NCBI GenBank assembly: GCA_030688545.1
Contig: JAUYHT010000002.1
Location: 210,001 to 242,000, forward strand
Direction of reading: 5' to 3'
DNA: 32,000 nt
Source of the DNA: Candidatus Iainarchaeum sp.
GTDB taxonomy: Archaea; Iainarchaeota; Iainarchaeia; Iainarchaeales; VGJJ01
Shown here: piece by piece, positions 3,719 through 29,505 of the stretch
How the letters are laid out: every line of letters starts with the position of its first letter
Position numbering within the stretch: the first letter of the stretch is position 1
The notes under the pieces: generated by a model
Database searches by the model: none
Seen by the model: only the letters and a program-made list of their open reading frames with translations
What the model was told of the DNA's origin: nothing
Position numbers and translations under genes: made by a program

Positions 3719-3741
3719 GAGCAGGGGGATTGTGTCCTCGT

Positions 3742-4656
3742 ATGCCTCCCATGCGCCCCATTCTCCGTGACATATATCATGTCGGGGTGGCGCTCGTTCT
3801 GGTACTGGTCATCCTGGGTTTAATCACGTGGTCGGGGTTCCTCTCCTGCCGCGACATCCCGGGGTGGTGCGACGTGTATTATGGGATCAAGGGCTCCCCC
3901 AAAACGCTCATCGTTTTCGGGGACGATGGATTAGGCAATCCGGATTGGCTGGCCCAGCAACTGCGCGATCCTAATGGGGCGCACGCGAGCAACCTCTCTC
4001 GGCAACAATTGGATTTCGTTTCCGCCGGAAACCTGAAAGAATTCGATTTGGTAATTGTCACCCGCGCGCGAACCATGCCCACGGAAAAATTAAAGGCCTT
4101 CATGGAATACGCGGACGCGGGAGGAAGGCTCATTTGGACGGGGGACGCGGGAACGGGACTGACGAATGAAGACCAGTTCCTGTACGCTGATGATTTGGAT
4201 GAGAATGCCGGGCACGAGATTTTAACGCCCTGGGCTAGGAAGGATAGTGAAACCAATACCCCCATCCGATTTGACCAATACATTTCAGCCGCCTACCAGG
4301 GGAATTGGTGTGAAGTAAGGGAGTGTGCCATCGAACAACAAGTGGGGTTGCTCGTTCCCGAAACCGGAGCCGACCACCCCCTCATATTTGGGATTGCCAA
4401 TAACCTGAACCTGTACGGGGATTTTTCGCTCGTGCGGGAACTGGGAATAGGCAGCACCATCGTTTTGAGCGTGGACACGCAAACCCTTGTTCGGGACACC
4501 GGAGGAAAGGAATTAGGGCGCGTATTCCCGCTCATCATCACTTCTGGAGTGGGGGAGAAAATAGTCTACTACGCCGTGCCCCCGGAGTACTATGGCGCTC
4601 CCCCCATGACCTATAAGCTGCTCCTCGAGAACTTGTACGTGGGGATGCTGCGATGA
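3742..4656 (+). CDS. Membrane-anchored protein, paralog of 5342-6313 (possible class I glutamine-amidotransferase-like/ThuA-like fold)
   Basis: It has an N-terminal TM (VALVLVLVILGLITW). The strand/helix pattern is TLIVFGDD...FDLVIVTR...FMEYADAGGRLIWTGDAG. The C-terminal blocks DHPLIFGI and FPLIITSG..KIVYYAVPP are mirrored in the paralog. The ORF track starts at TTG 3730, and ATG 3742 fits the TATA spacing better. Confidence 0.6.
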   Translation: MPPMRPILRDIYHVGVALVLVLVILGLITWSGFLSCRDIPGWCDVYYGIKGSPKTLIVFGDDGLGNPDWLAQQLRDPNGAHASNLSRQQLDFVSAGNLKEFDLVIVTRARTMPTEKLKAFMEYADAGGRLIWTGDAGTGLTNEDQFLYADDLDENAGHEILTPWARKDSETNTPIRFDQYISAAYQGNWCEVRECAIEQQVGLLVPETGADHPLIFGIANNLNLYGDFSLVRELGIGSTIVLSVDTQTLVRDTGGKELGRVFPLIITSGVGEKIVYYAVPPEYYGAPPMTYKLLLENLYVGMLR

Positions 4657-5345
4657 GCCCCCAAGTGGAACGGTTCAACAATCGGTTAAAACGAAATTCC
4701 AAAGTGGTTATCCTTCGACGGCACCTGAACCCTTCATTTAGAATAGAAAATGGAGAAATTAATGAAATTCGCGCGGCACGTGTCTCAGGACCAATTCTTA
4801 TATCACCCTTTTATGCTGGGGGTGATCCTAAAAATTATCCAGCCAAATTAGCTATATCTATCGCGTTTGTGTTATCTGCTAATCCATTTATAGCACAAAT
4901 TATCCAACGATTTTATTCCGAACTACCCCTGGATCAACCCATCATCATGCCCCCCTTCGAACGCTTTTATCCGGAAGGATGGATTCAGGCCAGCCGCATC
5001 AAGGAAACCCACCCCATCTATTATGTGGATATGAAAGGAAACCTTGTTTTCGTCAAAAATTCGCGAATGGAATATTTCCGCTATCTCTTTCAGAAATCCC
5101 TGCTCGGAAGATTGGGATATAATCCCTGGTGGTGGCGGGGATACATCGAGCCTCCTAAAGCACCGGAACCGGTTAAGAAGTGGGCTAAGGAGCAATTACG
5201 CAAATTGATGGAAAAAATTCCCAGAAAACCGGTACTAAAACCATCCCTCGTTCCTGTTCATTTTCGTCGTTCTGATCCTAAGTTTCAGGACAATTCTTCA
5301 TCCAGACGACCCAAAAGGATGCGGCGTGGATCACGAGGGAGATGA
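4653..5345 (+). CDS. Hypothetical protein with very basic C-terminal tail
   Basis: 230-aa ORF with ATGA overlaps to both neighbours. The first third is visibly AT-rich. No family recognised. Confidence 0.5.
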   Translation: MSPQVERFNNRLKRNSKVVILRRHLNPSFRIENGEINEIRAARVSGPILISPFYAGGDPKNYPAKLAISIAFVLSANPFIAQIIQRFYSELPLDQPIIMPPFERFYPEGWIQASRIKETHPIYYVDMKGNLVFVKNSRMEYFRYLFQKSLLGRLGYNPWWWRGYIEPPKAPEPVKKWAKEQLRKLMEKIPRKPVLKPSLVPVHFRRSDPKFQDNSSSRRPKRMRRGSRGR

Positions 5346-6313
5346 CCTATTTCCCACCCCCCACCCAATTGTTTATAAAGGAGTTAACGTCTTTACCTGC
5401 CAGGACACCCATCTGGGTTATTGGGGAAAATATCTATAGTGAGGAGGAAACACGCATGGCTTACGAGGACGAGGGCGCGGAATTGCCCCCACTGGACGGG
5501 GGTTCTTTCAGCTCCAAACTGCATTTCAATCTGGAAGCCTTGATCCCCATCATCCTTATCGTCATCATCGGATTCCTCCTCCTCGCCCGATTGGGAGTGG
5601 TTGATTCATCTACTCCCATCCTGGGACCGGTGGTGGGTTTCATTTCCCCTAATGCCACTGCCCGCGTGCTCATTGTAGGCGCCCCATCACCTGAACTGAT
5701 GGCCGTGCTCAATGCCAATAAAGACTTGGTGGGCAATCCAATTGTTAGAGTGGCGGAAGCCTTCGCGCGGGACCCCAGCAACCAATTGGCGCAATTCGAC
5801 ATCGTGATCATGGATCAATCCGGGCAACTCTCAAAAGAGATTCCCCGACAACTTGGGGATGCGCTCCAAGACTATGTGAAAACCGGAGGAAAACTCATCA
5901 TCATCCAAAATTCAGGGATTCAGCGCCCGGGGGCATTAGACATCTTAGGTTGGAAGGCCAACTTTGGGAATATCGTGCCGGTGAACTGCGACATCATATT
6001 GGATGGACAACCCACCTGCAAACGACCCATCGCCGTGGTGGGGGTTATCTGGCGGCAGGACTTCAAACATCCCATCATGCTGGGCATCGAACGCGTGCCC
6101 GCGGAAGCCGAAGCGGGCTACTTGCTCCTGGAAACCTATGACATCGGGGTCACCGGAAACGAGATAGCGTACATTGAAGACGCCCGCACGGGACAGAATT
6201 TCCCGGCCATCGTCGAACACGCTCAGCTCGGCGGAGGAAAGGTCATCTATTTCAATTACAATCCCGGCATCACTGCGGGCATACTTGAAAATACGATTAA
6301 ATACCTGCGTTGA
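5342..6313 (+). CDS. Membrane-anchored protein, paralog of 3742-4656
   Basis: It has a TM (LIPIILIVIIGFLLLARLGVV). It also has ARVLIVGA...FDIVIMDQ...YVKTGGKLIIIQNSG, KHPIMLGI and FPAIVEHAQLGGGKVIYFNYNPG, collinear with the first gene of the operon. Confidence 0.65.
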   Translation: MTYFPPPTQLFIKELTSLPARTPIWVIGENIYSEEETRMAYEDEGAELPPLDGGSFSSKLHFNLEALIPIILIVIIGFLLLARLGVVDSSTPILGPVVGFISPNATARVLIVGAPSPELMAVLNANKDLVGNPIVRVAEAFARDPSNQLAQFDIVIMDQSGQLSKEIPRQLGDALQDYVKTGGKLIIIQNSGIQRPGALDILGWKANFGNIVPVNCDIILDGQPTCKRPIAVVGVIWRQDFKHPIMLGIERVPAEAEAGYLLLETYDIGVTGNEIAYIEDARTGQNFPAIVEHAQLGGGKVIYFNYNPGITAGILENTIKYLR

Positions 6314-13427: not shown

Positions 13428-13524
13428 ATATTTTACTCAAAAGGAGAAAGGCGACATTTATTCCCCCTCCCATATGAAAACCCAACAAATAAGGCTTATA
13501 AAAGGGCGCGGCGTACTGGCCTCC

Positions 13525-14589
13525 ATGCGGAAAGGCATCCTCATCCTCGCGTTGCTCGTGTTTAGTGGAATGGTCTGGGCCCAAGAACTCACCTTAATTG
13601 GCCCCACTCACGTCCCCACCCTCATCCCCTTCACCTTTTTCACCGATCTTCCCCCCACGGACCAATTCAGCGAAGCTACGGTATACCTGGACGAACAACC
13701 CGCCGCCACCGCCTACCCAAGCGGTCATTGCGCAATCCTTCCTGAATGGGTGGGAAACGTTCTCTCGTGCACTATTTTCGACCGCGACCCCTCTTCCACG
13801 GGGGGATTGACTATGGTTTTCGTCCACTCCGGGTTCGCCAAGGGAGACCACCGCATCCGCGTATCCACAACCGGGAACACGAGCGCCACCCAGGAATTAT
13901 CAATCATCTCCGAGGATGTCCTGGGGGGAACCACCCTGGATAGTTTGAAAGCCAGCATGGTGGATGTGGAGAACCGCCTGCTACAAATAACCAATTCCTT
14001 AGATGAGTATACGATTACCATTCAAAACCTGCAACTGGAATTGAACACCAATCAGCAGATAGGGGAATCCCAAAGAAATAATCTGCAGCAATCATTGGAT
14101 GACGCTCGCATACAATTGGAATCCCAGCAAGGAACCATTGATGGTTTGAATGCTCAATTGCGCGCGGTCGAAAAAGAGGTCGCCAAATCATTCAAGAATC
14201 CTTTCGCAGGAGAGGAAGAAATTAACGCCCAATCGACAACCCCCCCACCCATTGTTCCAGACGATGATGAAAACAACCCTCCCGCCACGGGATTCGTTGT
14301 TGGTAACAATGCCCCCCTCATTGGACTCGGAATCCTTATTGTGGCGGGCGCATTGGTCCTATTCCATTTCCGCGGACGCCTCCCTTCAATCGGAAAAAAG
14401 AGTGGGCCCTTCTTCGAAGGAAGCATGGATGCCCTATTCAAAGGCGTTCCATCTCGCGAGGATTCTTCTCTCACCCCGCGCCGGTTCGCCAGCATATCCA
14501 GAGAGGAAGCCCGGCTGAGGAATGACGTGGAAACCAACCCTCCCGAAAAAGTCAATTTCTCCGAATTGATCCGAAAAGAACGGGACTAA
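13525..14589 (+). CDS. Secreted/membrane-anchored coiled-coil surface protein
   Basis: It has a signal-peptide-like MRKGILILALLVFSGMVWAQE, with a CTTATAAAAG box 26 nt upstream. The ORF track start at 13474 is probably too long. It also has a Q/L-rich coiled region and a TM (LIGLGILIVAGALVLF) followed by a cytoplasmic tail. Confidence 0.6.
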   Translation: MRKGILILALLVFSGMVWAQELTLIGPTHVPTLIPFTFFTDLPPTDQFSEATVYLDEQPAATAYPSGHCAILPEWVGNVLSCTIFDRDPSSTGGLTMVFVHSGFAKGDHRIRVSTTGNTSATQELSIISEDVLGGTTLDSLKASMVDVENRLLQITNSLDEYTITIQNLQLELNTNQQIGESQRNNLQQSLDDARIQLESQQGTIDGLNAQLRAVEKEVAKSFKNPFAGEEEINAQSTTPPPIVPDDDENNPPATGFVVGNNAPLIGLGILIVAGALVLFHFRGRLPSIGKKSGPFFEGSMDALFKGVPSREDSSLTPRRFASISREEARLRNDVETNPPEKVNFSELIRKERD

Positions 14590-14644: not shown

Positions 14645-14728
14645 GCAGGGGTACCGAAGTGGACAAACGGAACGCGTTTAGGCCGCGTTGGCTTAGTGCC
14701 TTCGGAGGTTCGAATCCTCCCTCCTGCA
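14645..14728 (+). tRNA. tRNA-Leu (anticodon UAG), type II with long variable arm
   Basis: Hand fold: GCAGGGG TA CCGAAGTGGACAAACGG A ACGCG TTTAGGC CGCGT TGGCTTAGTGCCTTC GGAGG TTCGAAT CCTCC CTCCTGC A. Confidence 0.9.
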
Positions 14729-14843: not shown

Positions 14844-14979
14844 CGAGGGTCTTGTTCCTCGATCCCGCTCACGTGTTATGTTTTCTGAGGACAGAAAAGT
14901 GTGTGTTTAACCTAATCTTTTAATATCATGCCAAATGGCATTCAATTACAGACATTCATCCTTTATCAGAAAAGGTCCT

Positions 14980-15225
14980 TTAGTCGTATACTCGCGGCCG
15001 CTTGTCTATTTTAGTCACCAAAACTATTTTCTCTGGATGTTTAACTTTGTAAAGAGCGCGATAGCCCCCAATCCTGAAGCGATGAACGGGTTCGCCGTTA
15101 TCCCTGGTAATAAATTTTGAATCTGAAGGAAATGGATCTTCAGATAGACGTTTTAGCCTTTCAATAATACGTTCTCGAAGATGTTTGTCTAACTTATCAA
15201 GAAACTTTTCCGCATGCTGCGACAA
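14980..15225 (-). CDS. RelE/ParE-family toxin
   Basis: It has FRIGGYRALYKVKHPEKIVLVTKIDKRPRVY, the RIGDYRxIY...HR..vY pattern. The listed start is TTG. The in-frame upstream residues IYAVH suggest the true start may be a few codons earlier. Confidence 0.8.
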   Translation of the reverse strand: MSQHAEKFLDKLDKHLRERIIERLKRLSEDPFPSDSKFITRDNGEPVHRFRIGGYRALYKVKHPEKIVLVTKIDKRPRVYD

Positions 15226-15241
15226 ATGAACAGCATAGATA

Positions 15242-15415
15242 CTATATCAGCCTCTTTGTCTTTCCTACTTTCAAATCTTTTTCAGCTTCCTTAATAGACT
15301 CTACATCATCATCAGTTAATACCAGATCAAAATCTACCAAGCGTCCTTTAATGAAGTCTAAGTCGCTACGAATATTTTTGAGTTCTTTCAAAATCGCCTT
15401 CGTTTCCGTTTCCAT
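15242..15415 (-). CDS. Small antitoxin partner of the RelE-like toxin
   Basis: 57 aa from ATG 15415 (METETKAILKELKNIRSDL...). A TTTTTTAAG box lies 27 nt upstream, and the stop lies 16 nt before the toxin start. Confidence 0.6.
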   Translation of the reverse strand: METETKAILKELKNIRSDLDFIKGRLVDFDLVLTDDDVESIKEAEKDLKVGKTKRLI

Positions 15416-15575
15416 AATAATTATCTCATACTTTTGACTTAAAAAACTATACACCAAAAAGACCTTTTCAGACTGATTTTATTAGGTTGTTTTGAAGCTT
15501 TATCTCACCATTTTTTCATTATTGTAAAATAACCCCCCTGACGATGGAAGTAATTAAATTCCTGAAATACTTCTG

Positions 15576-16205
15576 ATGTCCATGGCCGCTGATCAAACCA
15601 ATGCTGCGAATCAATTCATAACTAAAAATATGAAAACGATCGAAATGGCCGCTTTTTATGTTCGAAAACAATTATCTTCATTCAGGTTAACCAAAGAAGA
15701 CCTAATCAGCATGATTACATTGAAGATTATTCGAAATTTCACTTTTGTTGCCGATAGAGGCACACCAAAGGCTTACATTTTTATTATTGCCAGACATCTC
15801 ATAGTCGATACTTTACGTAAGAAAAGAATACGCATTAAACCAACATCATTCTCAAATATCGCAACCGATATTAGCTTGGAAGACCAATTCGAAACAAAAA
15901 AAGAAAGCGGATTGGATCCGGAAACACGAGATTGGTTGATTCAAAATATTATGCAACTACCATATCCACATCGCACCGTATTATTATTGAAATACGAAGG
16001 GATGACTAATGTGGCTATCGCCCGCCACCTTGGCATCCGGGTGAATCCAATAGCCAAGGGATACCATCTTGTGAAAAAAGCACATCAAATATTGCGTGAT
16101 CATTTAGAGAAAAAAAAAGATCCCTTTTTCCTGGACCAACAGAAGCCCCGTAAAAGAAAACCTGGCCCAAAACGATTAGGAAGACCGCGCAAACCTACAA
16201 GATAG
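15576..16205 (+). CDS. ECF-type sigma-70-family-like protein with AT-hook-like basic tail
   Basis: The region-2-like block is KEDLISMITLKIIRNFTFVADRGTPKAYIFIIARHLIVDTLRKKR. The region-4-like block is LPYPHRTVLLLKYEGMTNVAIARHLGIRVNPIAKGYHLVKKAHQILRDHL. The tail is KPRKRKPGPKRLGRPRKPTR. The surrounding DNA is AT-rich. Confidence 0.65.
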   Translation: MSMAADQTNAANQFITKNMKTIEMAAFYVRKQLSSFRLTKEDLISMITLKIIRNFTFVADRGTPKAYIFIIARHLIVDTLRKKRIRIKPTSFSNIATDISLEDQFETKKESGLDPETRDWLIQNIMQLPYPHRTVLLLKYEGMTNVAIARHLGIRVNPIAKGYHLVKKAHQILRDHLEKKKDPFFLDQQKPRKRKPGPKRLGRPRKPTR

Positions 16206-16248
16206 TATTCTTAAATCGTCCCCTTCCCAGTTGAGATGGAATTATGTT

Positions 16249-16322
16249 GCCCGTGTGGTGTAGTCTGGATAGCATAAAGGCTTCCGGAGCCTTTGACCTG
16301 GGTTCAAATCCCAGCACGGGTG
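16249..16322 (+). tRNA. tRNA-Arg (anticodon CCG)
   Basis: Hand fold: GCCCGTG TG GTGT AGTCTGGATA GCAT A AAGGC TTCCGGA GCCTT TGAC CTGGG TTCAAAT CCCAG CACGGGT G. It has a G1-U72 wobble and is followed by a T5 run. Confidence 0.85.
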
Positions 16323-16432
16323 TTTTTAGGGATTTGGAGAAAGGTGTCGCCAATATTGTTCCCTGGGCAATAGAGAGTTTATTCCAACCCCTCACGAGTA
16401 TTCTTTTAATCGTTCGAATATCCCAATAGGGT

Positions 16433-17017
16433 ATGCGTCTGGAAGACCTTTCATTCCAAACCGGAGAAAACGTATACGCCCCCCGGGAAGACTCCTGGCT
16501 GCTAGCTCACGCGATATTGAAAAACAAAAAGATCGTGCGCGGGAAGAAATGCCTCGATATGGGCTGCGGGAGCGGCATCCAGACCGCCGCAATGCTCCTG
16601 GTGGGAGGAAAAGAGGAAACCTATTCGGATATCGCCCCGGAAGCCTTGCACGCAACTGCTTCCTTGGTGGAACGATATTTCCCCAGCGCCAAAACCAAAC
16701 CCGTGCAGGGCGATCTATTCCAGCACGTGAAAGGAACATTTGATGTCATCGCCTTCAACCCCCCCTATGTCCCCTCCACCACCATCCGCTGGCGCGACAC
16801 AGATGGAGGAAAAAAAGGACGTGAAATCATCGATGCGTTTTTGGAAAAACTTGCCGACCACCTGAAACCGGGCGGGCATTGTTTTCTCCTCCAATCCAGC
16901 CTCAACATTCCCGAGATGACCGAACAGAAAATGAAAAAATTGGGAATGACTGGGAAAATCATTGCCACCCAAAAACTCTTCATGGAAGAACTCCAGGTGT
17001 GGCACCTCCAGATCTGA
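16433..17017 (+). CDS. HemK-related/Mtq2-like SAM-dependent methyltransferase
   Basis: It has motif I LDMGCGSGIQT and motif IV FNPPY. A TTCTTTTAAT box lies 27 nt upstream of the ATG. Confidence 0.8.
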   Translation: MRLEDLSFQTGENVYAPREDSWLLAHAILKNKKIVRGKKCLDMGCGSGIQTAAMLLVGGKEETYSDIAPEALHATASLVERYFPSAKTKPVQGDLFQHVKGTFDVIAFNPPYVPSTTIRWRDTDGGKKGREIIDAFLEKLADHLKPGGHCFLLQSSLNIPEMTEQKMKKLGMTGKIIATQKLFMEELQVWHLQI

Positions 17018-17031
17018 TCCTGTTAGAAACG

Positions 17032-18093
17032 TCAGGGGGTTCCAATGTCTACACAGCAGCCCATAATGCAGACTGGGTGGCCTTGACCAGAACCTCCGAA
17101 ACCGCAATCCTGATTGGTGGTGCAGCCGGGAGGACATCTGCTTCGGCAAGGCTCCGGGTTGGGGACGCACTGGCACCCCGCGCACACATATCCCGAAGAA
17201 ACCGTCGTCCCATCTGGACAAACGACTCCAAACGTCCCGGAACCCGCGCAATCGCTATCCGCCTCGCACACCTCGTTGTTCCCCGGATCCAAAACCCCAT
17301 TCCCGCAGAAGCCCATACCCTGATAGATGGAGATATCCGATACCCCATCACAAGGAGCGGTGGGAAAGCATTTCAGACCCGCATCCCCTACTAGATTACC
17401 ATTAGGTCCGGAAGGGCCGCCATTCCTCGAACAATCGGGATTGCATGTACCATCCTGGCATAAAATAGTTCCGGGAGAGCATGATCCTGTATCACAATAC
17501 TGGCAGAAAGAGATATCGAACCCCGTGCACGCGTTATTGCAACCCAATTCCCCATTGCACAATTGGATCCCTCCCTCGGTGTAGAAATCCGTGCAATCCA
17601 ACCAATCCCCAAGATTCGTCAAATCGCAGGCTTCTGTGATGCCCCCGCTCGCGGAACCATCCTCGATTCGATAATCGCCACAATATTGGTAGGTGAAGGT
17701 GGTGTATCCTCCTGTACGGGCACATACGACCTCAGCGATAACAAATTCATTGGGGTCATTTTCCAATCTCCCATTGAAGCAGCTCCATCCCCGAAGGTCA
17801 GGGAGGACCCCGGAGAGATTGTATTGGTAGCCACTATCATTAGGAAAATCCACCTCAGTGCTGCATGAACCGCTGATCGCGTAAAAATCCGTGGGACACA
17901 CCGCTTCGCAAAACTTATACCGTGCACCCGAGGATCCATCACATGCCTGGGTGATGGTAATAATATCGTCTTCTATTTCCTCGGCTGAATGACCGAAAAA
18001 AATAGCTTGACCCGCGGCCAGAGCCAAGGTTACCAAAAATAGGATAACGATTCCCGACATGGGCCATTTGAAAATTTGAAACCAATATTTCAT
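17032..18093 (-). CDS. Membrane-anchored cysteine-rich surface protein (six-Cys module plus long Cys-rich extension)
   Basis: It has an N-terminal TM (IVILFLVTLALAAG) and the GHSAEEI...six-Cys module shared with the two upstream genes. The tail has many Cys, including YCGDYRIEDG...EACD and FCGNGVLDPGNNEVCEADSDC units. Confidence 0.7.
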   Translation of the reverse strand: MKYWFQIFKWPMSGIVILFLVTLALAAGQAIFFGHSAEEIEDDIITITQACDGSSGARYKFCEAVCPTDFYAISGSCSTEVDFPNDSGYQYNLSGVLPDLRGWSCFNGRLENDPNEFVIAEVVCARTGGYTTFTYQYCGDYRIEDGSASGGITEACDLTNLGDWLDCTDFYTEGGIQLCNGELGCNNACTGFDISFCQYCDTGSCSPGTILCQDGTCNPDCSRNGGPSGPNGNLVGDAGLKCFPTAPCDGVSDISIYQGMGFCGNGVLDPGNNEVCEADSDCAGSGTFGVVCPDGTTVSSGYVCAGCQCVPNPEPCRSRCPPGCTTNQDCGFGGSGQGHPVCIMGCCVDIGTP

Positions 18094-18482
18094 GGACTCA
18101 CCTTCAAACAGATTACCTGCGCCCTCAAGAAGCTACTCGGGCCATGGGAGCCATCCGAACACTCCCAAAATTTTTGATTCGTGGACGCATCAGTAAGACC
18201 AAAGGCCTGGTACGCATAGCCAGTGAAAGAAATACAATTGCCACCGACCGCGACTTCGTCCGGCAGGATACAAGTAGCACGGCAGGGATTCCCGGCACCC
18301 GATGCATACCCTTGGAAATTGGTGCAATCCGTATCATATACAACGGTTTTCAATGCGATTTCATCTGGAGAATGCCCGAAGATCCGGGGGATATTAGTGC
18401 CATAAGCGGCAATCACCACTGCCAAAGCCACAACCAATACCCCCACTAAATGCCAACGCATGGCCGCGGGCGAATAAACCAT
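18090..18482 (-). CDS. Membrane-anchored six-Cys module protein (paralog)
   Basis: It has a TM (LVGVLVVALAVVIAAYG) followed by GHSPDEI...DC...PCRATC...EVAVGGNC...WEC...AQVIC. It overlaps the next gene by ATGA. Confidence 0.65.
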   Translation of the reverse strand: MVYSPAAMRWHLVGVLVVALAVVIAAYGTNIPRIFGHSPDEIALKTVVYDTDCTNFQGYASGAGNPCRATCILPDEVAVGGNCISFTGYAYQAFGLTDASTNQKFWECSDGSHGPSSFLRAQVICLKVSP

Positions 18483-18899
18483 TTAATTGACCTCCATGCA
18501 CTTTACTTCCGCGATGAATTTCCCGTTAAGATATCCAACGGTCGGCCAAGACAAATCCGTGCATTCCCACCGATAATAAGAAGAAATCCCCATCTTCCAA
18601 TAAACCCACCCCGCCCCATTGATGCAATTTCCACCCACGGCAACCTCATTTCCCAATTGGCAATCCGCATAGCACTGCGGGAAATTACTTCCAGAGCAAT
18701 CCACCTGGTATGAATTGAACGTATATTCTATTTCATTTGAGGGGTGACCCATTTTAGCGGGATCGCTGTTTCCGCAAAAAGGGTTATTGGGGTCTGGACA
18801 ATACCCCTGCACTAATACCATTATTCCGACCATCCCCAATCCAATCAAGATGATGGATGGGAGTATTGGGGATTTCAAAAAGAAGGGAATTTCCATCAT
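18483..18899 (-). CDS. Membrane-anchored six-Cys module protein (paralog)
   Basis: It has a TM (ILPSIILIGLGMVGIMVLV) followed by GHPSNEI...DC...QCYADC...EVAVGGNC...WEC...AEVKC. ATG 18899 is preferred over TTG 18920 because a TTTTTAATT box lies about 28 nt upstream. Confidence 0.65.
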   Translation of the reverse strand: MMEIPFFLKSPILPSIILIGLGMVGIMVLVQGYCPDPNNPFCGNSDPAKMGHPSNEIEYTFNSYQVDCSGSNFPQCYADCQLGNEVAVGGNCINGAGWVYWKMGISSYYRWECTDLSWPTVGYLNGKFIAEVKCMEVN

Positions 18900-19055
18900 A
18901 CCGGGGACACGAATCCCCAATTAAAAACCGCTGCCTGTAAACGTTATCAAACCCTTTAAATGCCCTCTGGGATCCTATTCCGACAGACCTACTATGGGAT
19001 CAAAGGAAGAGATTCCAATTGTCACCTCAAAATAACACCTCATGATGCGATTGAA

Positions 19056-19262: not shown

Positions 19263-19290
19263 TTGAAGCAGGTTTCCAAACCTGCTTCAA
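19263..19290. terminator. 13-bp inverted repeat TTGAAGCAGGTTT-CC-AAACCTGCTTCAA with adjacent A8/T8 run
   Basis: Read directly. It overlaps the stop of the minus-strand lipoprotein gene. On the minus strand the hairpin is followed by a T-run, which looks like an intrinsic terminator. Confidence 0.5.
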
Positions 19291-19820
19291 GAGAAATCGA
19301 AAACAGTATCTTTTACGGCCATATACGTTTTCCCATCATATATAAAATCGATTTCTAGATAAACCGTGCTATCTGGTACGAATCCCTCATCGAATTCCAA
19401 CCTTATTTCTTTTCCGAGAAATCCGTAATCCGAATCGATAACGATGTTATTCCATTCTTTGATAAGATCCGTTTTTACTGTTTTGAATTTCGAGTCATAA
19501 TCTGAATCATAAACCCTGGCATTCAATAGTCCCTCGGCTCGGACTAATTTCCCTTCTTTATTTTCAGGTTGAATAGTAACCTTGATTCCATCCACCTCTG
19601 GATCGGCATCCCAGTTATCCATAGACGCGGACCAGATTGATAATGTCGAGACTTCAGGTTTAGATTCCTGCTTAGACGGTGCAGAGGCTTGAGACACCGT
19701 ATCGTTTTCTCCACTTGAAGCCGTATTTTCAGTGTCAGAATAGGTTGGTTTACTTGTGCACCCGGCAAGGAATAACATCGCGACCAATAATACCCCAACA
19801 TAAATTTTGAATTGACTCAT
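19287..19820 (-). CDS. Putative lipoprotein
   Basis: It starts at MSQFKIYVGVLLVAMLFLAGC, with a lipobox-like LAGC. A strong GGAGG motif lies 8 nt upstream of ATG 19820. The DNA is AT-rich. Confidence 0.7.
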   Translation of the reverse strand: MSQFKIYVGVLLVAMLFLAGCTSKPTYSDTENTASSGENDTVSQASAPSKQESKPEVSTLSIWSASMDNWDADPEVDGIKVTIQPENKEGKLVRAEGLLNARVYDSDYDSKFKTVKTDLIKEWNNIVIDSDYGFLGKEIRLEFDEGFVPDSTVYLEIDFIYDGKTYMAVKDTVFDFS

Positions 19821-19870
19821 TTTTTCTCCTCCTTTTTTCCACCCCATCACAGGCTCATTAGATTTTATTT

Positions 19871-20257
19871 TCATTTTTCATCCTTCACCTTATTCTTTTT
19901 TTTAAATTCAATATTTCCTTTTTCAGATAGGACTTCTTTACGTTCTTCGTATTCCTCTTTGGTTATTTCCCCATCTGCATATTTTCGTTTCAATACGATC
20001 AGCGGTGATTCAATGCTTGTAGTAGCAGGCGTGTTGTTGACAACAGTGACCTGCTGGATCTGTTGGGTTACCCCCGCCACGATTTTTGCTGGATCTTCAG
20101 CTAATGTAGCAATTTTCCATGTTTTACCAAACATCCACAAACCAACCGGAAGTCCAATAATGGTTAGGCAGGCTATCAAGGCTAATATGACCCAAAGCAA
20201 GGCCACCCACCATCCAATTAAAATAAACCAAATAACCCGGACTACCGTACTTGCCAT
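19871..20257 (-). CDS. YccF-like (DUF307) membrane domain fused to a SHOCT-like C-terminal motif
   Basis: It has IWFILIGWWVALLWVILALIACLTIIGLPVGLWMF, followed by LKRKYADGEITKEEYEERKEVL. Confidence 0.65.
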   Translation of the reverse strand: MASTVVRVIWFILIGWWVALLWVILALIACLTIIGLPVGLWMFGKTWKIATLAEDPAKIVAGVTQQIQQVTVVNNTPATTSIESPLIVLKRKYADGEITKEEYEERKEVLSEKGNIEFKKKNKVKDEK

Positions 20258-20795: not shown

Positions 20796-21395
20796 TTAGT
20801 GCCGCCAATACCTTACAACCGCATACACCAATGCCACGATGATAAGCAATACCACCAACACGTCAACAAGGGCTTGGTGCTGAGCAACGATGAAATAGTT
20901 TTCCTGCAGGGCATAACCGAATGACGCCAGGAAGAGATTCCACATCCCCGCGCCCGCGATGGTCATGGCCGCAAACTTCCCGGGAGGCATGTTGCTCATC
21001 CCGGCCGGAATGGAAATGAGATGTCTTACCACGGGAACAAAACGGCCAATGAATACCGTGGCATGCCCCCGCTTGGCAAACCAATCCTCGACCATACGCA
21101 AATGTTTCCGTTTCAACCCGAAAATTTCCCCGTGGCTCACGATGAAGTCCCTTCCGAAATATTTTCCGGTGTAATAGGAAACGAAGGAGCCGGCCAGACT
21201 CCCCAACGTTGCAAACCCAACAACTAGAACGAAATCAAGATTCCCTTTGGCCGCCGCCCACCCTGCAAAAGGCATCACCAATTCGCTGGGAATGGGAATG
21301 ATCATGGATTCCCAAGTCATCAGGATGAATATTCCAAAATACCCCGTGGTCGCAATGAGGACGGCGAAGGATTCGGCAAGGACCTCGAACACCAT
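20796..21395 (-). CDS. DedA/SNARE-associated family membrane protein
   Basis: It has FGIFILMTWESMIIPIPSELVMPFAG, GRFVPVVRHLISIPAGM, and about 4-5 TM segments. Confidence 0.85.
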   Translation of the reverse strand: MVFEVLAESFAVLIATTGYFGIFILMTWESMIIPIPSELVMPFAGWAAAKGNLDFVLVVGFATLGSLAGSFVSYYTGKYFGRDFIVSHGEIFGLKRKHLRMVEDWFAKRGHATVFIGRFVPVVRHLISIPAGMSNMPPGKFAAMTIAGAGMWNLFLASFGYALQENYFIVAQHQALVDVLVVLLIIVALVYAVVRYWRH

Positions 21396-24763: not shown

Positions 24764-26038
24764 ATGGCCGCATCCCACCCCCAGCAGGAGCGCATCGAGG
24801 AAAACCCATCTTCCACTCCACCCAAATCCTCTCCGCTCCAAACTTATTCTCCCTCCCCCACCCCATCAACCACCTCTCCACCCTCCCCGACTCAACCCAT
24901 TAACCCTCCACCCGACCCAAATCCTTCAGTCCCCCCACTCCCCCATTCTCCGCATCGGGCGCTCATCATCGGGGGAATTCTCATCCTTCTCATTCTCATT
25001 GTGGGGGTGTTAGTGTACACCAAGTTTGTGTCCCCTCCAACTAATGGAGTGCCGGATGACCTAACCATGGTCCAGGTCCGGGTGGTGGTGGATGACGCCT
25101 GCGATTTTTGCCTGCAGACGAATACTATTCTCGCCAAGCTGGATGAATCCAATATCCGCTACACCACCGAAACCATTAGCCTGCACAGCCCGGAAGGAAA
25201 ACAGTTGGTCGCTGATTTCGACATCCCCTACGCCCCCACGGCCCTCATCAGTGTCGCGGGTCTGGATCAGAACATCCAGATTCAGGCCGCCCTCCAGGGA
25301 CGTTTTATTCGGAACCCCTTTCGCATTGTGAATGGGTTTGTGGTGGCGCCCGAACAATATCTCACCAACCAAGCTTTCCCAGTTACGTATACTAGCCCCC
25401 CCACCGCCTGCTCCTCATCTCCAGGAAAAATTCCCTTACGCGCCTATCTGGACTTCGGGGAATGCACTCCTTGTGTAGAGGCCTACTTGGTTACCCAGCG
25501 GTTGGAAACCAAATACCCTGCATTGGATGTTGAAATAACGCCCATCATGTTTGGTTTCCCCCGCACCCCCGCGCAAGCGGCCGCGGCCTTCGTGAGCAAC
25601 AAGGGAGCGGTTTGCACCCAAGAAATGGGATTCTTCGAGGATTACCAGGAATGCCATTTCTTTGACTCCCAATTCTATGGAAGCTTGGACCTCAACCGCA
25701 TGCTCGCCTGTCTGAGTGACGCAGGAGGAAAAAGCCAGGAGACCAAATCCCAATTCCAAACCTGCGTAGGAGATGCGGATGGAAAAGCGGAACAACGACT
25801 CGTGGTCCAGACGAAAGAATCCCAGGCCTGGAACCCATCCCCCTGGGTGACGCCCTGGTTTGTATTGGACTGCACCTACGCGTTCACGGGTCACAATGCC
25901 ATAGAAGCTTACCTCTGTTCTACCCACCCCGAACTGGAAGGATGCACAGCCATTCTAGATGCCCTCTCCATGGATGTCAATGCGGCCAATGACCTGAGTG
26001 AACCGGACACCAACAAAAGCCAGCCCCTCGCGGAATGA
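24764..26038 (+). CDS. Membrane-anchored protein with two CxxC thioredoxin-fold modules (second DsbA-like)
   Basis: It has a Pro/Ser/Thr-rich N-terminal tail and a TM (ALIIGGILILLILIVGVLVY). Module 1 has VVVDDACDFC...IPYAPTALI. Module 2 has LDFGECTPC...an inserted helical region...VTPWFVLD. Confidence 0.65.
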   Translation: MAASHPQQERIEENPSSTPPKSSPLQTYSPSPTPSTTSPPSPTQPINPPPDPNPSVPPLPHSPHRALIIGGILILLILIVGVLVYTKFVSPPTNGVPDDLTMVQVRVVVDDACDFCLQTNTILAKLDESNIRYTTETISLHSPEGKQLVADFDIPYAPTALISVAGLDQNIQIQAALQGRFIRNPFRIVNGFVVAPEQYLTNQAFPVTYTSPPTACSSSPGKIPLRAYLDFGECTPCVEAYLVTQRLETKYPALDVEITPIMFGFPRTPAQAAAAFVSNKGAVCTQEMGFFEDYQECHFFDSQFYGSLDLNRMLACLSDAGGKSQETKSQFQTCVGDADGKAEQRLVVQTKESQAWNPSPWVTPWFVLDCTYAFTGHNAIEAYLCSTHPELEGCTAILDALSMDVNAANDLSEPDTNKSQPLAE

Positions 26039-28212: not shown

Positions 28213-29505
28213 TTACCTTCCCACGCGCCCTTTCAAATATTTCCAGCCGAACCGGATGAGCAAAAGGAGGGCGATCCCTCCTAAGAGGTAGGCGAGGCCG
28301 GTGATGATATTCTGGGATAAGACGTCATTCTCCGCATCCGGGTTGAATACGCCAGCTACGTGTATTTTTTTTACCAGGGCTTTGGCGGCGGGAACATTTG
28401 AATTAACTCCTGCATATTGGCGCTGGTCAAATTGGTTTTGAATCAGGGCCCAGGATTTGTCTAACGCGGCCACGCTGGTTTGATCAACCCAATAGGGTTT
28501 GACATCCTCACGCAGGATGAAGGTGGCCGCTTCCTGGAGGGAAATGAACCCAGTGGTGTTCTGGAGGGATGTGTCTTCTCCGTGGATGGAAGTATAAGCC
28601 TCTTTCCTAAACAGACGGGTCTCGAGTTCGGCATCGAACGCCGCCACGCGCGTGGGAATGGCTATAGTTTCTGCTCCAAAACGCTGGGCATTGTCAGCGG
28701 CGATGGCCGCATAGGGAGAAATAGCTGACCCCAATGTCTGGTTGGCTGAAAGAGGGGATATGAGGGCAATGAACTGGGATTTCTCATCCACGCTTAATCC
28801 TTCAGCAGTGGCAATCGCATTCTTGACCTGGGATACCTCCCCATCATACGTCCCCGCCGCATCCTTGAGGGCGTTCAAGCGGGAAAACACATTCCCATAT
28901 TCATCCGGCAATCGTAACACTTCCTGGGTGTCAATGGTCACTCCCAAAAAAACAGCTTCCTTTCCCGAGAGTAAACGGATATCTTGGGCCCCCTGCCTCA
29001 ATTCATTTGACAGATCATCCAGTTTGGGCCGGAGCGCGGCCACTTTGGGTTTCAGGGAATTATCATCAATGGAATCCCGCACCACCTCCACGTCGAAACG
29101 CTCATTCTCCACCGCGTTGGCCAACTCCTCCAGCTTGGAGGCCGTGGTTAGGGAAATAGTCCACTGCGAGGAACTCTTTAGGAAATCAATCCGTTGCACC
29201 CACCATTGAGCGGATAAGAGGTCGGAGCGGAGATTACTTTGAGGAACAATCTCCCCATCTTTGTCGCCTATGGGAATGAGGGTGCGTATTCCGTCATTCT
29301 CATACACCCCCACCACCCAATACTTGGCGCTCCCATTCGTCTGGGAAAGCGCCTTGAACACCGCGGCCCGCTCACCGGGTTCAAGATAATGGCCATTCAC
29401 CACTATGTTTTCAGCATCCAAGGCCTGCAACCCCCACGCTCCAGAAGCCGAAATGATGAACACGGCCATGAGAATGGCATGGAATGCGGTAGCCCCCCCT
29501 TTCAT
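28213..29505 (-). CDS. Type I membrane/surface protein of unknown function
   Basis: It has a signal-like N-terminus (FHAILMAVFIISASGAWG) and a C-terminal TM plus basic tail (GLAYLLGGIALLLLIRFGWKYLKGRVGR). Confidence 0.6.
   Translation of the reverse strand: MKGGATAFHAILMAVFIISASGAWGLQALDAENIVVNGHYLEPGERAAVFKALSQTNGSAKYWVVGVYENDGIRTLIPIGDKDGEIVPQSNLRSDLLSAQWWVQRIDFLKSSSQWTISLTTASKLEELANAVENERFDVEVVRDSIDDNSLKPKVAALRPKLDDLSNELRQGAQDIRLLSGKEAVFLGVTIDTQEVLRLPDEYGNVFSRLNALKDAAGTYDGEVSQVKNAIATAEGLSVDEKSQFIALISPLSANQTLGSAISPYAAIAADNAQRFGAETIAIPTRVAAFDAELETRLFRKEAYTSIHGEDTSLQNTTGFISLQEAATFILREDVKPYWVDQTSVAALDKSWALIQNQFDQRQYAGVNSNVPAAKALVKKIHVAGVFNPDAENDVLSQNIITGLAYLLGGIALLLLIRFGWKYLKGRVGR

What the first reader, a model, noticed from the sequence alone, without database searches (positions are those of the whole stretch)
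17032..18920. Tight operon of three paralogous membrane-anchored cysteine-rich proteins sharing an unrecognised six-Cys module
The three minus-strand genes abut or overlap: TAA then ATG at 18483/18482, and an ATGA overlap at 18090-18093. Each product has one N-terminal hydrophobic helix followed by the same ~90-aa module. The module reads G-H-[SP]-x-x-E-I ... C ... C-x3-C ... A-[VI]-[GS]-G-x-C ... W-x-C ... A-x-V-x-C, with six invariant Cys, and EVAVGGNC is identical in two copies. The last protein adds a ~230-aa tail with about 28 further Cys by hand count. That tail includes two CG[DN]...E-x-CD units resembling the Myxococcus-type cysteine-rich repeat. I cannot assign the N-terminal module to a named family. 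This looks like a dedicated disulfide-stabilised surface or adhesin set, the kind of gene set expected to mediate cell-cell contact in a small-genome archaeon.
Basis: partly seen in the sequence, partly recalled or inferred. Interest (0 to 1): 0.7.

Follow-up and report, generated by a model that had tools for sequence, protein, structure and literature searches.

The report
Archaeal three-gene disulfide-rich surface protein set
Three adjacent genes of a tiny (DPANN) archaeon encode an undescribed, lineage-restricted family of outward-facing, disulfide-locked small proteins; their predicted fold most resembles the cysteine-rich tail of human PCSK9 and the hormone resistin, and their function is still unknown.

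Summary
Three minus-strand genes (A 18483-18899, B 18090-18482, C 17032-18093) abut (TAA|ATG) or overlap (ATGA). Each encodes a K/R-rich N-terminus, one hydrophobic helix, a GH[SP]xxEI motif and a ~95-aa module with six Cys. C adds a 225-aa tail with 28 more Cys.

The family is real but very small: about 40 representative clusters among 1.84 billion proteins. Named members are Candidatus Diapherotrites, and none lie on viral contigs. Pfam, NCBIfam, PHROGs, PADLOC and PDB sequences give no significant match.

The His and all six Cys are invariant in every aligned member (44/44, 55/55). All 52 family proteins have an even Cys count after the helix, and charge bias gives N-in/C-out. Both point to extracytoplasmic disulfides.

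AlphaFold (pLDDT 87.6) predicts a six-stranded beta-sandwich. [quoted passage not shown]

Gene order A-B-C recurs in five independent contigs at the same chromosomal site, and A, B and C form separate orthologous clades.

Most likely this is a co-assembled, possibly trimeric, cell-surface complex with C's tail as the binding part. That function is inferred. It is a new family and moderately interesting.

The parts
18483..18899 (-). Gene A (138 aa from ATG 18899; the mechanical ORF extends to TTG 18920). It has a K-containing N-terminus, a hydrophobic helix, an extra Cys pair (C34, C42), GHPSNEI, and the six-Cys module.
   Evidence: (P0004 = NCBI Q8P05_01800, 138 aa)
18801..18869 (-). A: hydrophobic helix (residues 11-33), either a signal anchor or a signal peptide
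   Evidence: KD 19-aa mean 2.66
18486..18767 (-). A: six-Cys module (residues 45-138; GH motif at 18729-18749)
18090..18482 (-). Gene B (130 aa; NCBI Q8P05_01795). Its ATG directly follows A's TAA, and an SD-like GGAGGT lies 8 nt upstream.
18402..18452 (-). B: hydrophobic helix (residues 11-27)
18096..18395 (-). B: six-Cys module (residues 30-129; GH motif at 18357-18377; Cys 53, 67, 71, 83, 108, 125). This is the sequence that was modelled: six beta-strands, pLDDT 87.6.
17032..18093 (-). Gene C (353 aa, 34 Cys). Its ATG overlaps B's stop (ATGA), and an SD-like GAAGGTGA lies upstream.
18013..18060 (-). C: hydrophobic helix (residues 12-27)
17710..18012 (-). C: six-Cys module (residues 28-128; GH motif at 17974-17994)
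17494..17682 (-). C tail unit 1 (residues 138-200), CG[DN]YxIE...E.CD..N.GD..DC.DF...LCNG.L.C...C..FDIS.C.YC, conserved in at least 80% of C-type proteins
17167..17310 (-). C tail unit 2 (residues 262-309), FCG[DN]G...E.C[ED]...VCPDGT..SSG..C..C.C
17035..17166 (-). C tail C-terminal Cys-rich cap (residues 310-353), ending in ...GCC
18917..18960 (-). Promoter-like AT-rich elements upstream of A: TTTAAA (18955-18960) and TTTTTAA (18921-18927). The second lies about 22-28 nt before ATG 18899, as expected for a TATA box of a leaderless archaeal mRNA. This is inferred, not tested.

Best explanation
The three genes form one operon. It encodes a lineage-specific (Diapherotrites-type DPANN) set of extracytoplasmic proteins.

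Each protein is inserted N-in/C-out by one N-terminal hydrophobic helix, which is either a signal anchor or possibly a cleaved signal peptide. Outside the cell, each displays one module of about 95 aa: a six-stranded beta-sandwich locked by three disulfides. A short neck carrying an invariant His (GH[ST]xxE[IV]) precedes the module.

The predicted fold is that of the modules of the PCSK9 Cys/His-rich domain and of resistin. In those proteins, three such units pack around a (pseudo-)threefold axis.

A, B and C are translationally coupled, keep a fixed gene order, and each belongs to its own conserved orthologous clade. I therefore propose that they assemble into one hetero-oligomeric head on the cell surface, most simply a 1:1:1 trimer. 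C's 225-aa tail, with 14 predicted disulfides, would project outward as the ligand- or partner-binding part.

Shown:
- operon structure
- family membership and invariant residues
- even-Cys rule and charge bias
- predicted fold and its best structural match
- conserved order and orthology

Inferred:
- disulfide connectivity (C1-C2, C3-C6, C4-C5, by analogy with PCSK9)
- hetero-oligomer formation
- the binding or adhesive role
- the role of the invariant His
For: Operon:
- TAA|ATG and ATGA junctions, with SD-like motifs before B and C.

Family:
- The profile finds about 40 representatives in 1.84e9 proteins.
- His and six Cys are invariant in 44/44 and 55/55 sequences.

Outside the cell and disulfide-bonded:
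- 52/52 proteins have an even Cys count after the helix (6, 8, 10, 12, 26...38), so Cys are gained and lost in pairs.
- K+R 2.3 versus D+E 0.6 before the helix, and 0.2 versus 1.7 in the 15 aa after it.
- A syntenic membrane protein with two CxxC motifs matches Pyrococcus protein disulfide oxidoreductase (E = 1.7e-5).

Fold:
- Two independent AF2 models (pLDDT 73.8 and 87.6, pTM 0.66 and 0.77) both have six strands.
- With the better model, the top 15 Foldseek PDB hits are all the PCSK9 C-terminal domain (probability 0.97-0.99, TM 0.50-0.55, 15-17% identity).
- A PCSK9 CHRD module also has six strands and six Cys in three disulfides, and M1-M3 pack like the resistin homotrimer (PMC9113161).
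- Family spacings C3-x10-17-C4-x20-34-C5-x14-46-C6 parallel PCSK9 C2-x8-9-C3-x18-25-C4-x11-23-C5.

Acting together:
- A-B-C order is found in the window, L001, L003, L007 and L008, and partially in L005, always between RNase HII and the HemK2 methyltransferase.
- Modules cluster by type (A, B, C, b2, c2), not by genome.
- The tail occurs only fused to C-type modules.
Against: - Homology to PCSK9 or resistin is not detectable by sequence. The profile gives 0 hits against PDB sequences at E <= 10. hhalign gives score 12.8, P = 0.07. Only 1 of 39 members touches Pfam Resistin, at E = 0.2. Foldseek E-values are 0.06-0.3, and TM about 0.5 is borderline.
- The Cys pattern differs: an invariant C-x3-C is present and the terminal CC doublet is absent.
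- No multimer prediction could be run, so the hetero-oligomer rests only on analogy and gene arrangement.
- Some genomes carry a two-gene set (short + long) at the same site (L004, L005, L007). That does not fit a strict 1:1:1 trimer.
- No known adhesin or lectin domain is present, and no functionally informative neighbour is conserved.
- Anchor versus cleaved signal peptide is unresolved.
Confidence: 0.5

Rival explanations
1. The three are independent secreted or surface-attached binding proteins that form no obligate complex. Under this view they are a small paralogous family of disulfide-stabilised adhesins or ligand binders that diversified by duplication, and the tight operon only ensures co-expression.
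For: The topology and disulfide evidence is the same as for the best explanation. Set size varies (two-gene and three-gene sets). Paralogs are strongly diverged (25-36% identity). A possible signal-peptidase junction (small residue then Tyr) lies at the end of the helix.
Against: The strict A-B-C order and the separate, conserved orthologous clades across genomes argue for non-redundant, co-dependent roles. Translational coupling suggests stoichiometric production. The best-matching fold is one that works as a (pseudo-)trimer.
Confidence: 0.27
2. They are small secreted signalling or antagonistic Cys-rich proteins (resistin-like or defensin-like). The signal peptide would be cleaved to release them, and they would act on neighbouring or host cells rather than on the producer's surface.
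For: Mature A and B would be about 95-105 aa, the size of resistin. The fold match is to resistin-type modules. The hydrophobic segment is only 16-20 aa and ends at an A/G-Y junction.
Against: The hydrophobic segments are strongly hydrophobic (KD 2.0-3.1) and the N-termini are K/R-rich, as in signal anchors. There is no export, immunity or processing gene in the conserved neighbourhood. C is large and modular, more like a structural surface protein.
Confidence: 0.1
3. They are type IV pilin-like filament subunits. A and B would be major or minor pilins (N-terminal hydrophobic helix plus a small disulfide-bonded beta head), and C would be a tip adhesin.
For: The architecture is superficially pilin-like: a short charged N-terminus, a hydrophobic helix and a small beta domain with disulfides. 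Several paralogs plus one larger protein sit in one operon.
Against: The family N-termini show no conserved class III signal-peptide cleavage motif ([KR]-[GA] before the helix). The helix is only about 17-22 aa and a Gly/Pro-rich linker follows it, whereas pilins have the long alpha-1 helix. The models contain no such helix. No pilus ATPase, platform or prepilin-peptidase gene lies in any of the conserved neighbourhoods. The fold search returns no pilins.
Confidence: 0.06
4. They are cytoplasmic or membrane-proximal metal-binding (Zn or Fe-S) Cys clusters rather than disulfide-bonded proteins.
For: There is an invariant C-x3-C plus an invariant His. DPANN archaea often live in anoxic settings where external disulfides are less expected (general knowledge).
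Against: The positive-inside bias places the Cys-rich part outside. The even-Cys rule holds in 52/52 proteins over counts from 6 to 38, which is hard to explain by metal sites. The predicted beta-sandwich places Cys as in the disulfide-bonded PCSK9 modules.
Confidence: 0.04

Closest known systems
[quoted passage not shown]
   Same: The module is about 75-95 aa, with six beta-strands and six Cys predicted to form three disulfides. It is the best and most consistent structural match (top 15 Foldseek hits, probability 0.97-0.99, TM 0.50-0.55). Spacing of four of the six Cys runs in parallel (PMC9113161). Three modules act together in PCSK9, and here there are three genes.
   Different: There is no detectable sequence homology. 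This family has an invariant C-x3-C and lacks the terminal CC doublet, so one disulfide must be wired differently. PCSK9 has three modules fused in one vertebrate secreted protease, whereas here each module is on its own polypeptide with its own N-terminal hydrophobic helix, in an archaeon. The invariant GH..E neck has no PCSK9 counterpart.
Resistin / RELM family (Pfam PF06954)
   Same: Both are small secreted Cys-rich beta-sandwich heads that trimerise. The CHRD is structurally homologous to the resistin homotrimer (PMC9113161; PMC9816786). The local pattern C-P-x-G-x-A-V-L-S-C in resistin (sequence verified against 1rfx_A) resembles C-P-x-x-x-x-A-V-S-G-x-C here.
   Different: Resistin has 10 head Cys and an N-terminal coiled coil instead of a hydrophobic helix. 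It does not appear among the top 50 Foldseek hits. Only 1 of 39 members touches PF06954, at E = 0.2.
Myxococcus cysteine-rich repeat (TIGR02232 / Pfam DUF4215)
   Same: The tail units begin CG[DN][GY]-x-[IV]-[ED]-x-G-E-x-C[DE]-x-x-N, a pattern reminiscent of that repeat (the resemblance is from my own knowledge of the repeat consensus).
   Different: Neither model is hit by any of eight C-type tails, even at E <= 5-10. The rest of unit 1 (DC.DF...LCNG...FDIS.C.YC) is specific to this family, and tail homologs are found only in this family.
Trimeric receptor-binding knobs (R-type pyocin and phage tail-fibre tips, H-type lectins)
   Same: These are small six- to eight-stranded beta-sandwiches that work as trimers at the tip of a fibre. 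They appeared in the first fold search (6ct8, 6cl6, 2ccv) and weakly in the viral library.
   Different: Probabilities are low (0.2-0.5), and they drop out of the top ranks with the better model. They are not Cys-rich. The family is absent from viral contigs and PHROGs.

Membership tests
PCSK9 CHRD module (PCSK9_C1/C2/C3) | Significant match to the Pfam or PDB sequence models | tested here: not met
   Pfam scans of A, B, C and of all 39 modules gave no PCSK9_C hit. The profile against PDB sequences gave 0 hits at E <= 10. hhalign against M1-M3 gave score 12.8, P = 0.07.
PCSK9 CHRD module (PCSK9_C1/C2/C3) | Six-stranded beta-sandwich fold | tested here: met
   The AF2 models have six strands. 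The top 15 Foldseek PDB hits are all PCSK9 CHRD, with probability 0.97-0.99 and TM 0.50-0.55. This rests on a predicted structure, and the E-values are only 0.06-0.3.
PCSK9 CHRD module (PCSK9_C1/C2/C3) | Cys motif C-x17-19-C-x8-9-C-x18-25-C-x11-23-CC with disulfides 1-6, 2-5, 3-4 (PMC9113161) | tested here: not met
   The family motif is C-x4-16-C-x3-C-x10-17-C-x20-34-C-x14-46-C. There are six Cys and four spacings run in parallel, but there is no CC doublet and an extra C-x3-C is present. Connectivity could not be checked because no coordinates were available.
Resistin (PF06954) | Match to PF06954 above the gathering threshold | tested here: not met
   1 of 39 members matches, at E = 0.2. A, B and C give none.
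Myxococcus cysteine-rich repeat (TIGR02232 / DUF4215) | HMM match to the repeat model | tested here: not met
   Pfam on the isolated tail at E <= 5 gave 0 families. NCBIfam on eight tails at E <= 10 gave no TIGR02232 hit.
Archaeal type IV pilin (class III signal peptide) | Short charged leader ending in [KR]-[GA] immediately before the hydrophobic helix, plus a long N-terminal alpha-helix | tested here: not met
   The N-termini of 44 members show no conserved cleavage motif. The helix is 16-22 aa and a Gly/Pro linker follows it. The models show no long helix.
Extracytoplasmic disulfide-bonded protein (general class) | N-in/C-out topology and all Cys paired | tested here: met
   Positive-inside bias and an even Cys count in 52/52 proteins. 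This is sequence statistics only, with no experimental test.

The most novel reading that the evidence does not exclude
These are the first prokaryotic proteins with the resistin / PCSK9-CHRD fold. Three separately encoded, membrane-tethered modules would assemble into a heterotrimeric head, an 'unfused' counterpart of the M1-M2-M3 pseudo-trimer. The invariant neck His (with Glu) would sit on or near the threefold axis, for example binding a metal as in phage tail fibres. The complex, tipped by C's 14-disulfide tail, would be the device by which these ultrasmall archaea attach to a partner cell or surface.
Probability: 0.2. Interest if true: 0.7.

Novelty: new variant of a known kind. Interest (0 to 1): 0.47.

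Why it matters
DPANN archaea are thought to depend on contact with other cells, yet the surface molecules involved are almost entirely unknown. This is a clean, conserved, lineage-specific surface gene set that could be tested directly.

The resistin / PCSK9-CHRD fold has so far been discussed as an animal feature. A confident archaeal look-alike, split over three genes, would bear on how such disulfide-rich (pseudo-)trimeric heads arise, whether by fusion or by convergence.

On the practical side, the family has no Pfam or NCBIfam model and could be added as a new domain family: the six-Cys module with its GH..E neck, and the separate C-type tail.

Tried and rejected
- Pfam, NCBIfam, PHROGs and PADLOC scans of A, B, C, the isolated tail, all 39 modules and eight tails gave nothing significant.
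- phmmer and profile searches against PDB sequences gave one weak hit to a mildew effector for protein C (8oxk_A, E = 0.0098), which I took as Cys-composition noise and did not follow up. The module and tail profiles gave nothing at E <= 10.
- hhalign of the family profile against PCSK9 M1-M3 was not significant. An alignment of resistin head sequences was prepared, but the comparison was not run.
- P0025 (1544 aa, six partial matches) turned out to be a bacterial Ig-like repeat protein and is not a member.
- The viral fold library gave only generic small beta-sandwiches. The viral contig scan found no relatives, so the set is not a mobile or viral element.
- Genome and metagenome contig scans added only two new loci, L007 and L008. 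The broad alignments were too divergent for the pattern search.
- I considered whether the TM + GH..E N-terminus is a general leader shared with other proteins. In 70+ kb of related loci it occurs only in this family.
- I considered signal-peptidase cleavage directly before the invariant His, which would create an N-terminal His. I rejected it on sequence grounds: the -3 position is a large hydrophobic residue, and the site lies 10-14 aa past the helix.
- Cluster look-ups gave no organism names for divergent members.
- Literature searches found nothing on this family.
- Model coordinates are not exposed, so disulfide geometry could not be measured.
Full report
**1. The observation**

The junctions read 'gtc aat TAA ATG gtt' (A stop and B start adjacent at 18483/18482) and 'cc ATGA aa' (B stop and C start overlapping at 18090-18093). 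SD-like GGAGGT and GAAGGTGA motifs precede the B and C start codons.

A most likely starts at ATG 18899 (138 aa, as in the NCBI call P0004) rather than at the upstream TTG 18920. A TTTTTAA element lies about 25 nt upstream of that ATG.

Pairwise BLASTP gives A-B E = 8e-15, B-C E = 3e-9 and A-C 0.036. 'EVAVGGNCI' is identical in A and B. C has 34 Cys, 28 of them in the tail. The description is therefore correct apart from small details.

**2. Source and context**

B and A are identical to hypothetical proteins Q8P05_01795 and Q8P05_01800 of a Candidatus Diapherotrites archaeon MAG (418-kb contig).

The window carries archaeal housekeeping genes: deoxyhypusine synthase, a HerA-like ATPase, ZPR1, TatD, RNase HII, archaeal-type ProRS and HemK2/MTQ2.

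The cluster converges on the HemK2 methyltransferase gene (16433-17017). In relatives it lies between that gene and RNase HII. In the window, a tRNA-Leu, a lipoprotein-like gene, a YccF/SHOCT gene and a DedA gene are inserted between RNase HII and the cluster.

**3. The family**

Word-indexed searches found only a handful of relatives.

An exhaustive HMM search of 1.84 billion representative proteins with a nine-sequence module profile found 40 proteins at E <= 1e-3. One of them, P0025, is a spurious Ig-repeat protein.

All true members share the same plan:
- a K/R-rich N-terminus;
- a hydrophobic helix ending in [A/G]-Y;
- a Gly/Pro linker;
- GH[ST]xxE[IV];
- the six-Cys module.

In 44 members the His and all six Cys are invariant, G is 42/44, E is 39/44 and W is 37/44 with 6 Y. 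The invariant residues hold in 55 sequences once locus-derived genes are added.

The motif is H-x13-52-C-x4-16-C-x3-C-x10-17-C-x20-34-C-x14-46-C.

Pfam, NCBIfam, PHROGs, PADLOC and PDB sequences give no significant hit. No relatives were found on viral contigs. Named members are all Candidatus Diapherotrites. The family is therefore real, narrow and undescribed, and literature searches found nothing on it.

**4. Topology and redox state**

The hydrophobic segments score 1.8-3.1 (19-aa Kyte-Doolittle mean). Before the helix there are on average 2.3 K+R against 0.6 D+E. In the 15 residues after it there are 0.2 K+R against 1.7 D+E. This positive-inside bias puts the Cys-rich parts outside the cell.

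All 52 family proteins examined have an even number of Cys after the helix (6, 8, 10, 12, 26, 28, 30, 32, 34, 36, 38). Extra Cys therefore always come in pairs, for example C34/C42 of A. This is the signature of fully disulfide-bonded proteins.

About 6 kb away in conserved synteny lies a 424-aa single-pass membrane protein (24764-26038) with two conserved CxxC motifs. Its profile matches Pyrococcus protein disulfide oxidoreductase (1a8l_A, E = 1.7e-5). This is circumstantial support for a disulfide-handling capacity, but its sidedness is ambiguous.

Whether the N-terminal helix stays as an anchor or is removed at the conserved small-residue/Tyr junction cannot be decided here.

**5. Fold**

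With nine sequences AF2 gave pLDDT 73.8 and pTM 0.66. With 39 sequences it gave pLDDT 87.6 and pTM 0.77. Both models have the same six strands.

Pyocin fibre knobs and H-type lectins also appeared. With the better model the top 15 hits are all PCSK9 (probability 0.97-0.99, TM 0.50-0.55, 15-17% identity over about 87 columns, E 0.06-0.3).

According to PMC9113161, each CHRD module has six strands and six Cys forming three disulfides (1-6, 2-5, 3-4), and M1-M3 resemble the resistin homotrimer.

The family's C3-C4-C5-C6 spacings parallel PCSK9's C2-C3-C4-C5. By analogy I infer C4-C5, C3-C6 and a family-specific C1-C2 bond.

Sequence-level homology is not detectable:
- the profile against PDB sequences finds nothing;
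- hhalign against the verified PCSK9 modules (sequences checked) gives P = 0.07, although in the expected register;
- only 1 of 39 members grazes Pfam Resistin, at E = 0.2.

The claim is therefore 'same fold type'. I do not claim membership of the family.

**6. The tail of C**

The tail is conserved among C-type proteins. It consists of:
- unit 1, CG[DN]YxIE...E.CD..N.GD..DC.DF...LCNG.L.C...C..FDIS.C.YC;
- a Cys-rich linker;
- unit 2, FCG[DN]G...E.C[ED]...VCPDGT...;
- a cap ending in GCC.

A profile search with the tail finds only C-type proteins of this family. Neither Pfam nor TIGR02232 is hit. The Myxococcus-repeat resemblance is therefore pattern-level only.

**7. Arrangement and orthology**

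A-B-C in that order occurs in the window, L001, L003, L007 and L008, and is starting in the truncated L005. L007, L005 and probably L004 also carry an upstream short+long pair (b2-c2) at the same site.

In a neighbour-joining tree the modules group by type (A, B, C, b2, c2), each clade holding members from several genomes. All tail-bearing modules form one superclade. The paralogs are therefore old and individually maintained, which argues for distinct roles that depend on each other.

**8. Interpretation**

The supported core is that these are co-expressed, extracytoplasmic, disulfide-locked beta-sandwich proteins of a DPANN-restricted family.

The mechanistic proposal is that the three heads assemble into a hetero-oligomer, most simply a trimer as in PCSK9 CHRD or resistin, with C's tail as the binding part. 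It rests on the fold analogy, translational coupling, fixed order and type-specific conservation. The two-gene sets weaken it, and no multimer modelling could be run.

The rivals, weighed in the structured fields, are:
- independent binders;
- released signalling or antagonistic proteins;
- pilin-like subunits;
- metal-binding clusters.

The role of the invariant His (with Glu) in the neck is unexplained. pLDDT there is about 82, which suggests it packs on the domain.

**9. Verdict**

This is a new, unannotated family with a fold resemblance that is unexpected in an archaeon. The function is unproven. Interest is moderate.

Noticed in passing
window 14850-16100 (ORFs 14980-15225 -, 15242-15457 -, 15576-16205 +), flanked by tRNA-Leu 14645-14728 and tRNA-Arg 16248-16323: A low-GC island (0.32-0.40 against about 0.50) lies between two tRNA genes. 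It carries a RelE/ParE-like toxin, a small antitoxin-like ORF and a bacterial-type sigma-70/ECF-like protein (TIGR02937, E = 1e-14). This is an odd gene for an archaeal genome and is probably horizontally acquired.
   Followed up: partly
window 24764-26038 (+); orthologs L001:2062-3279 (-) and L003:3227-4516 (-): A conserved 405-429-aa single-pass membrane protein with 12 Cys and two conserved CxxC motifs. Its profile matches Pyrococcus protein disulfide oxidoreductase (1a8l_A, E = 1.7e-5). It is a candidate membrane-anchored disulfide oxidoreductase syntenic with the Cys-rich cluster. Pfam finds nothing in the window copy.
   Followed up: partly
window 19287-19874 (-) and 19871-20257 (-): A 195-aa protein with a bacterial-style lipobox (LFLAGC) overlaps by 4 nt a YccF + SHOCT membrane protein. 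Together with DedA/UptA-like 20796-21395 (-), these genes are inserted between RNase HII and the cluster in this genome only.
   Followed up: no
L007:1837-3189 and L005:568-1950 (also L004:2710-4186): A second, two-gene set of the same family (short b2 + long c2 with a Pro-rich tail variant) lies directly upstream of the A-B-C set at the same chromosomal site in some relatives.
   Followed up: partly
window 18093 vs 18060 (gene C start); window 18920 vs 18899 (gene A start): Gene callers disagree on the starts. One public call of C (P0045, 342 aa) starts at Met12, but the ATGA overlap and the K/R-rich N-termini of orthologs favour 18093. For A, the NCBI start at ATG 18899 fits better than the longest-ORF TTG 18920.
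   Followed up: yes
P0023 (family member from another metagenome), N-terminal 30 residues: The predicted protein begins with a translated tRNA gene ('GFEPRSRASEALMLSRLHHAG', the same reading as across the window's tRNA). A tRNA therefore also lies just upstream of the cluster in that genome, and the public gene call is over-extended.
   Followed up: no
window 3730-6313 (+), three consecutive ORFs (308, 230, 323 aa); also 13474-14589 (+) and 28213-29505 (-): Several sizeable ORFs have no Pfam match at E <= 1e-3. The 371-aa protein at 13474-14589 shows only weak coiled-coil-type hits.
   Followed up: no
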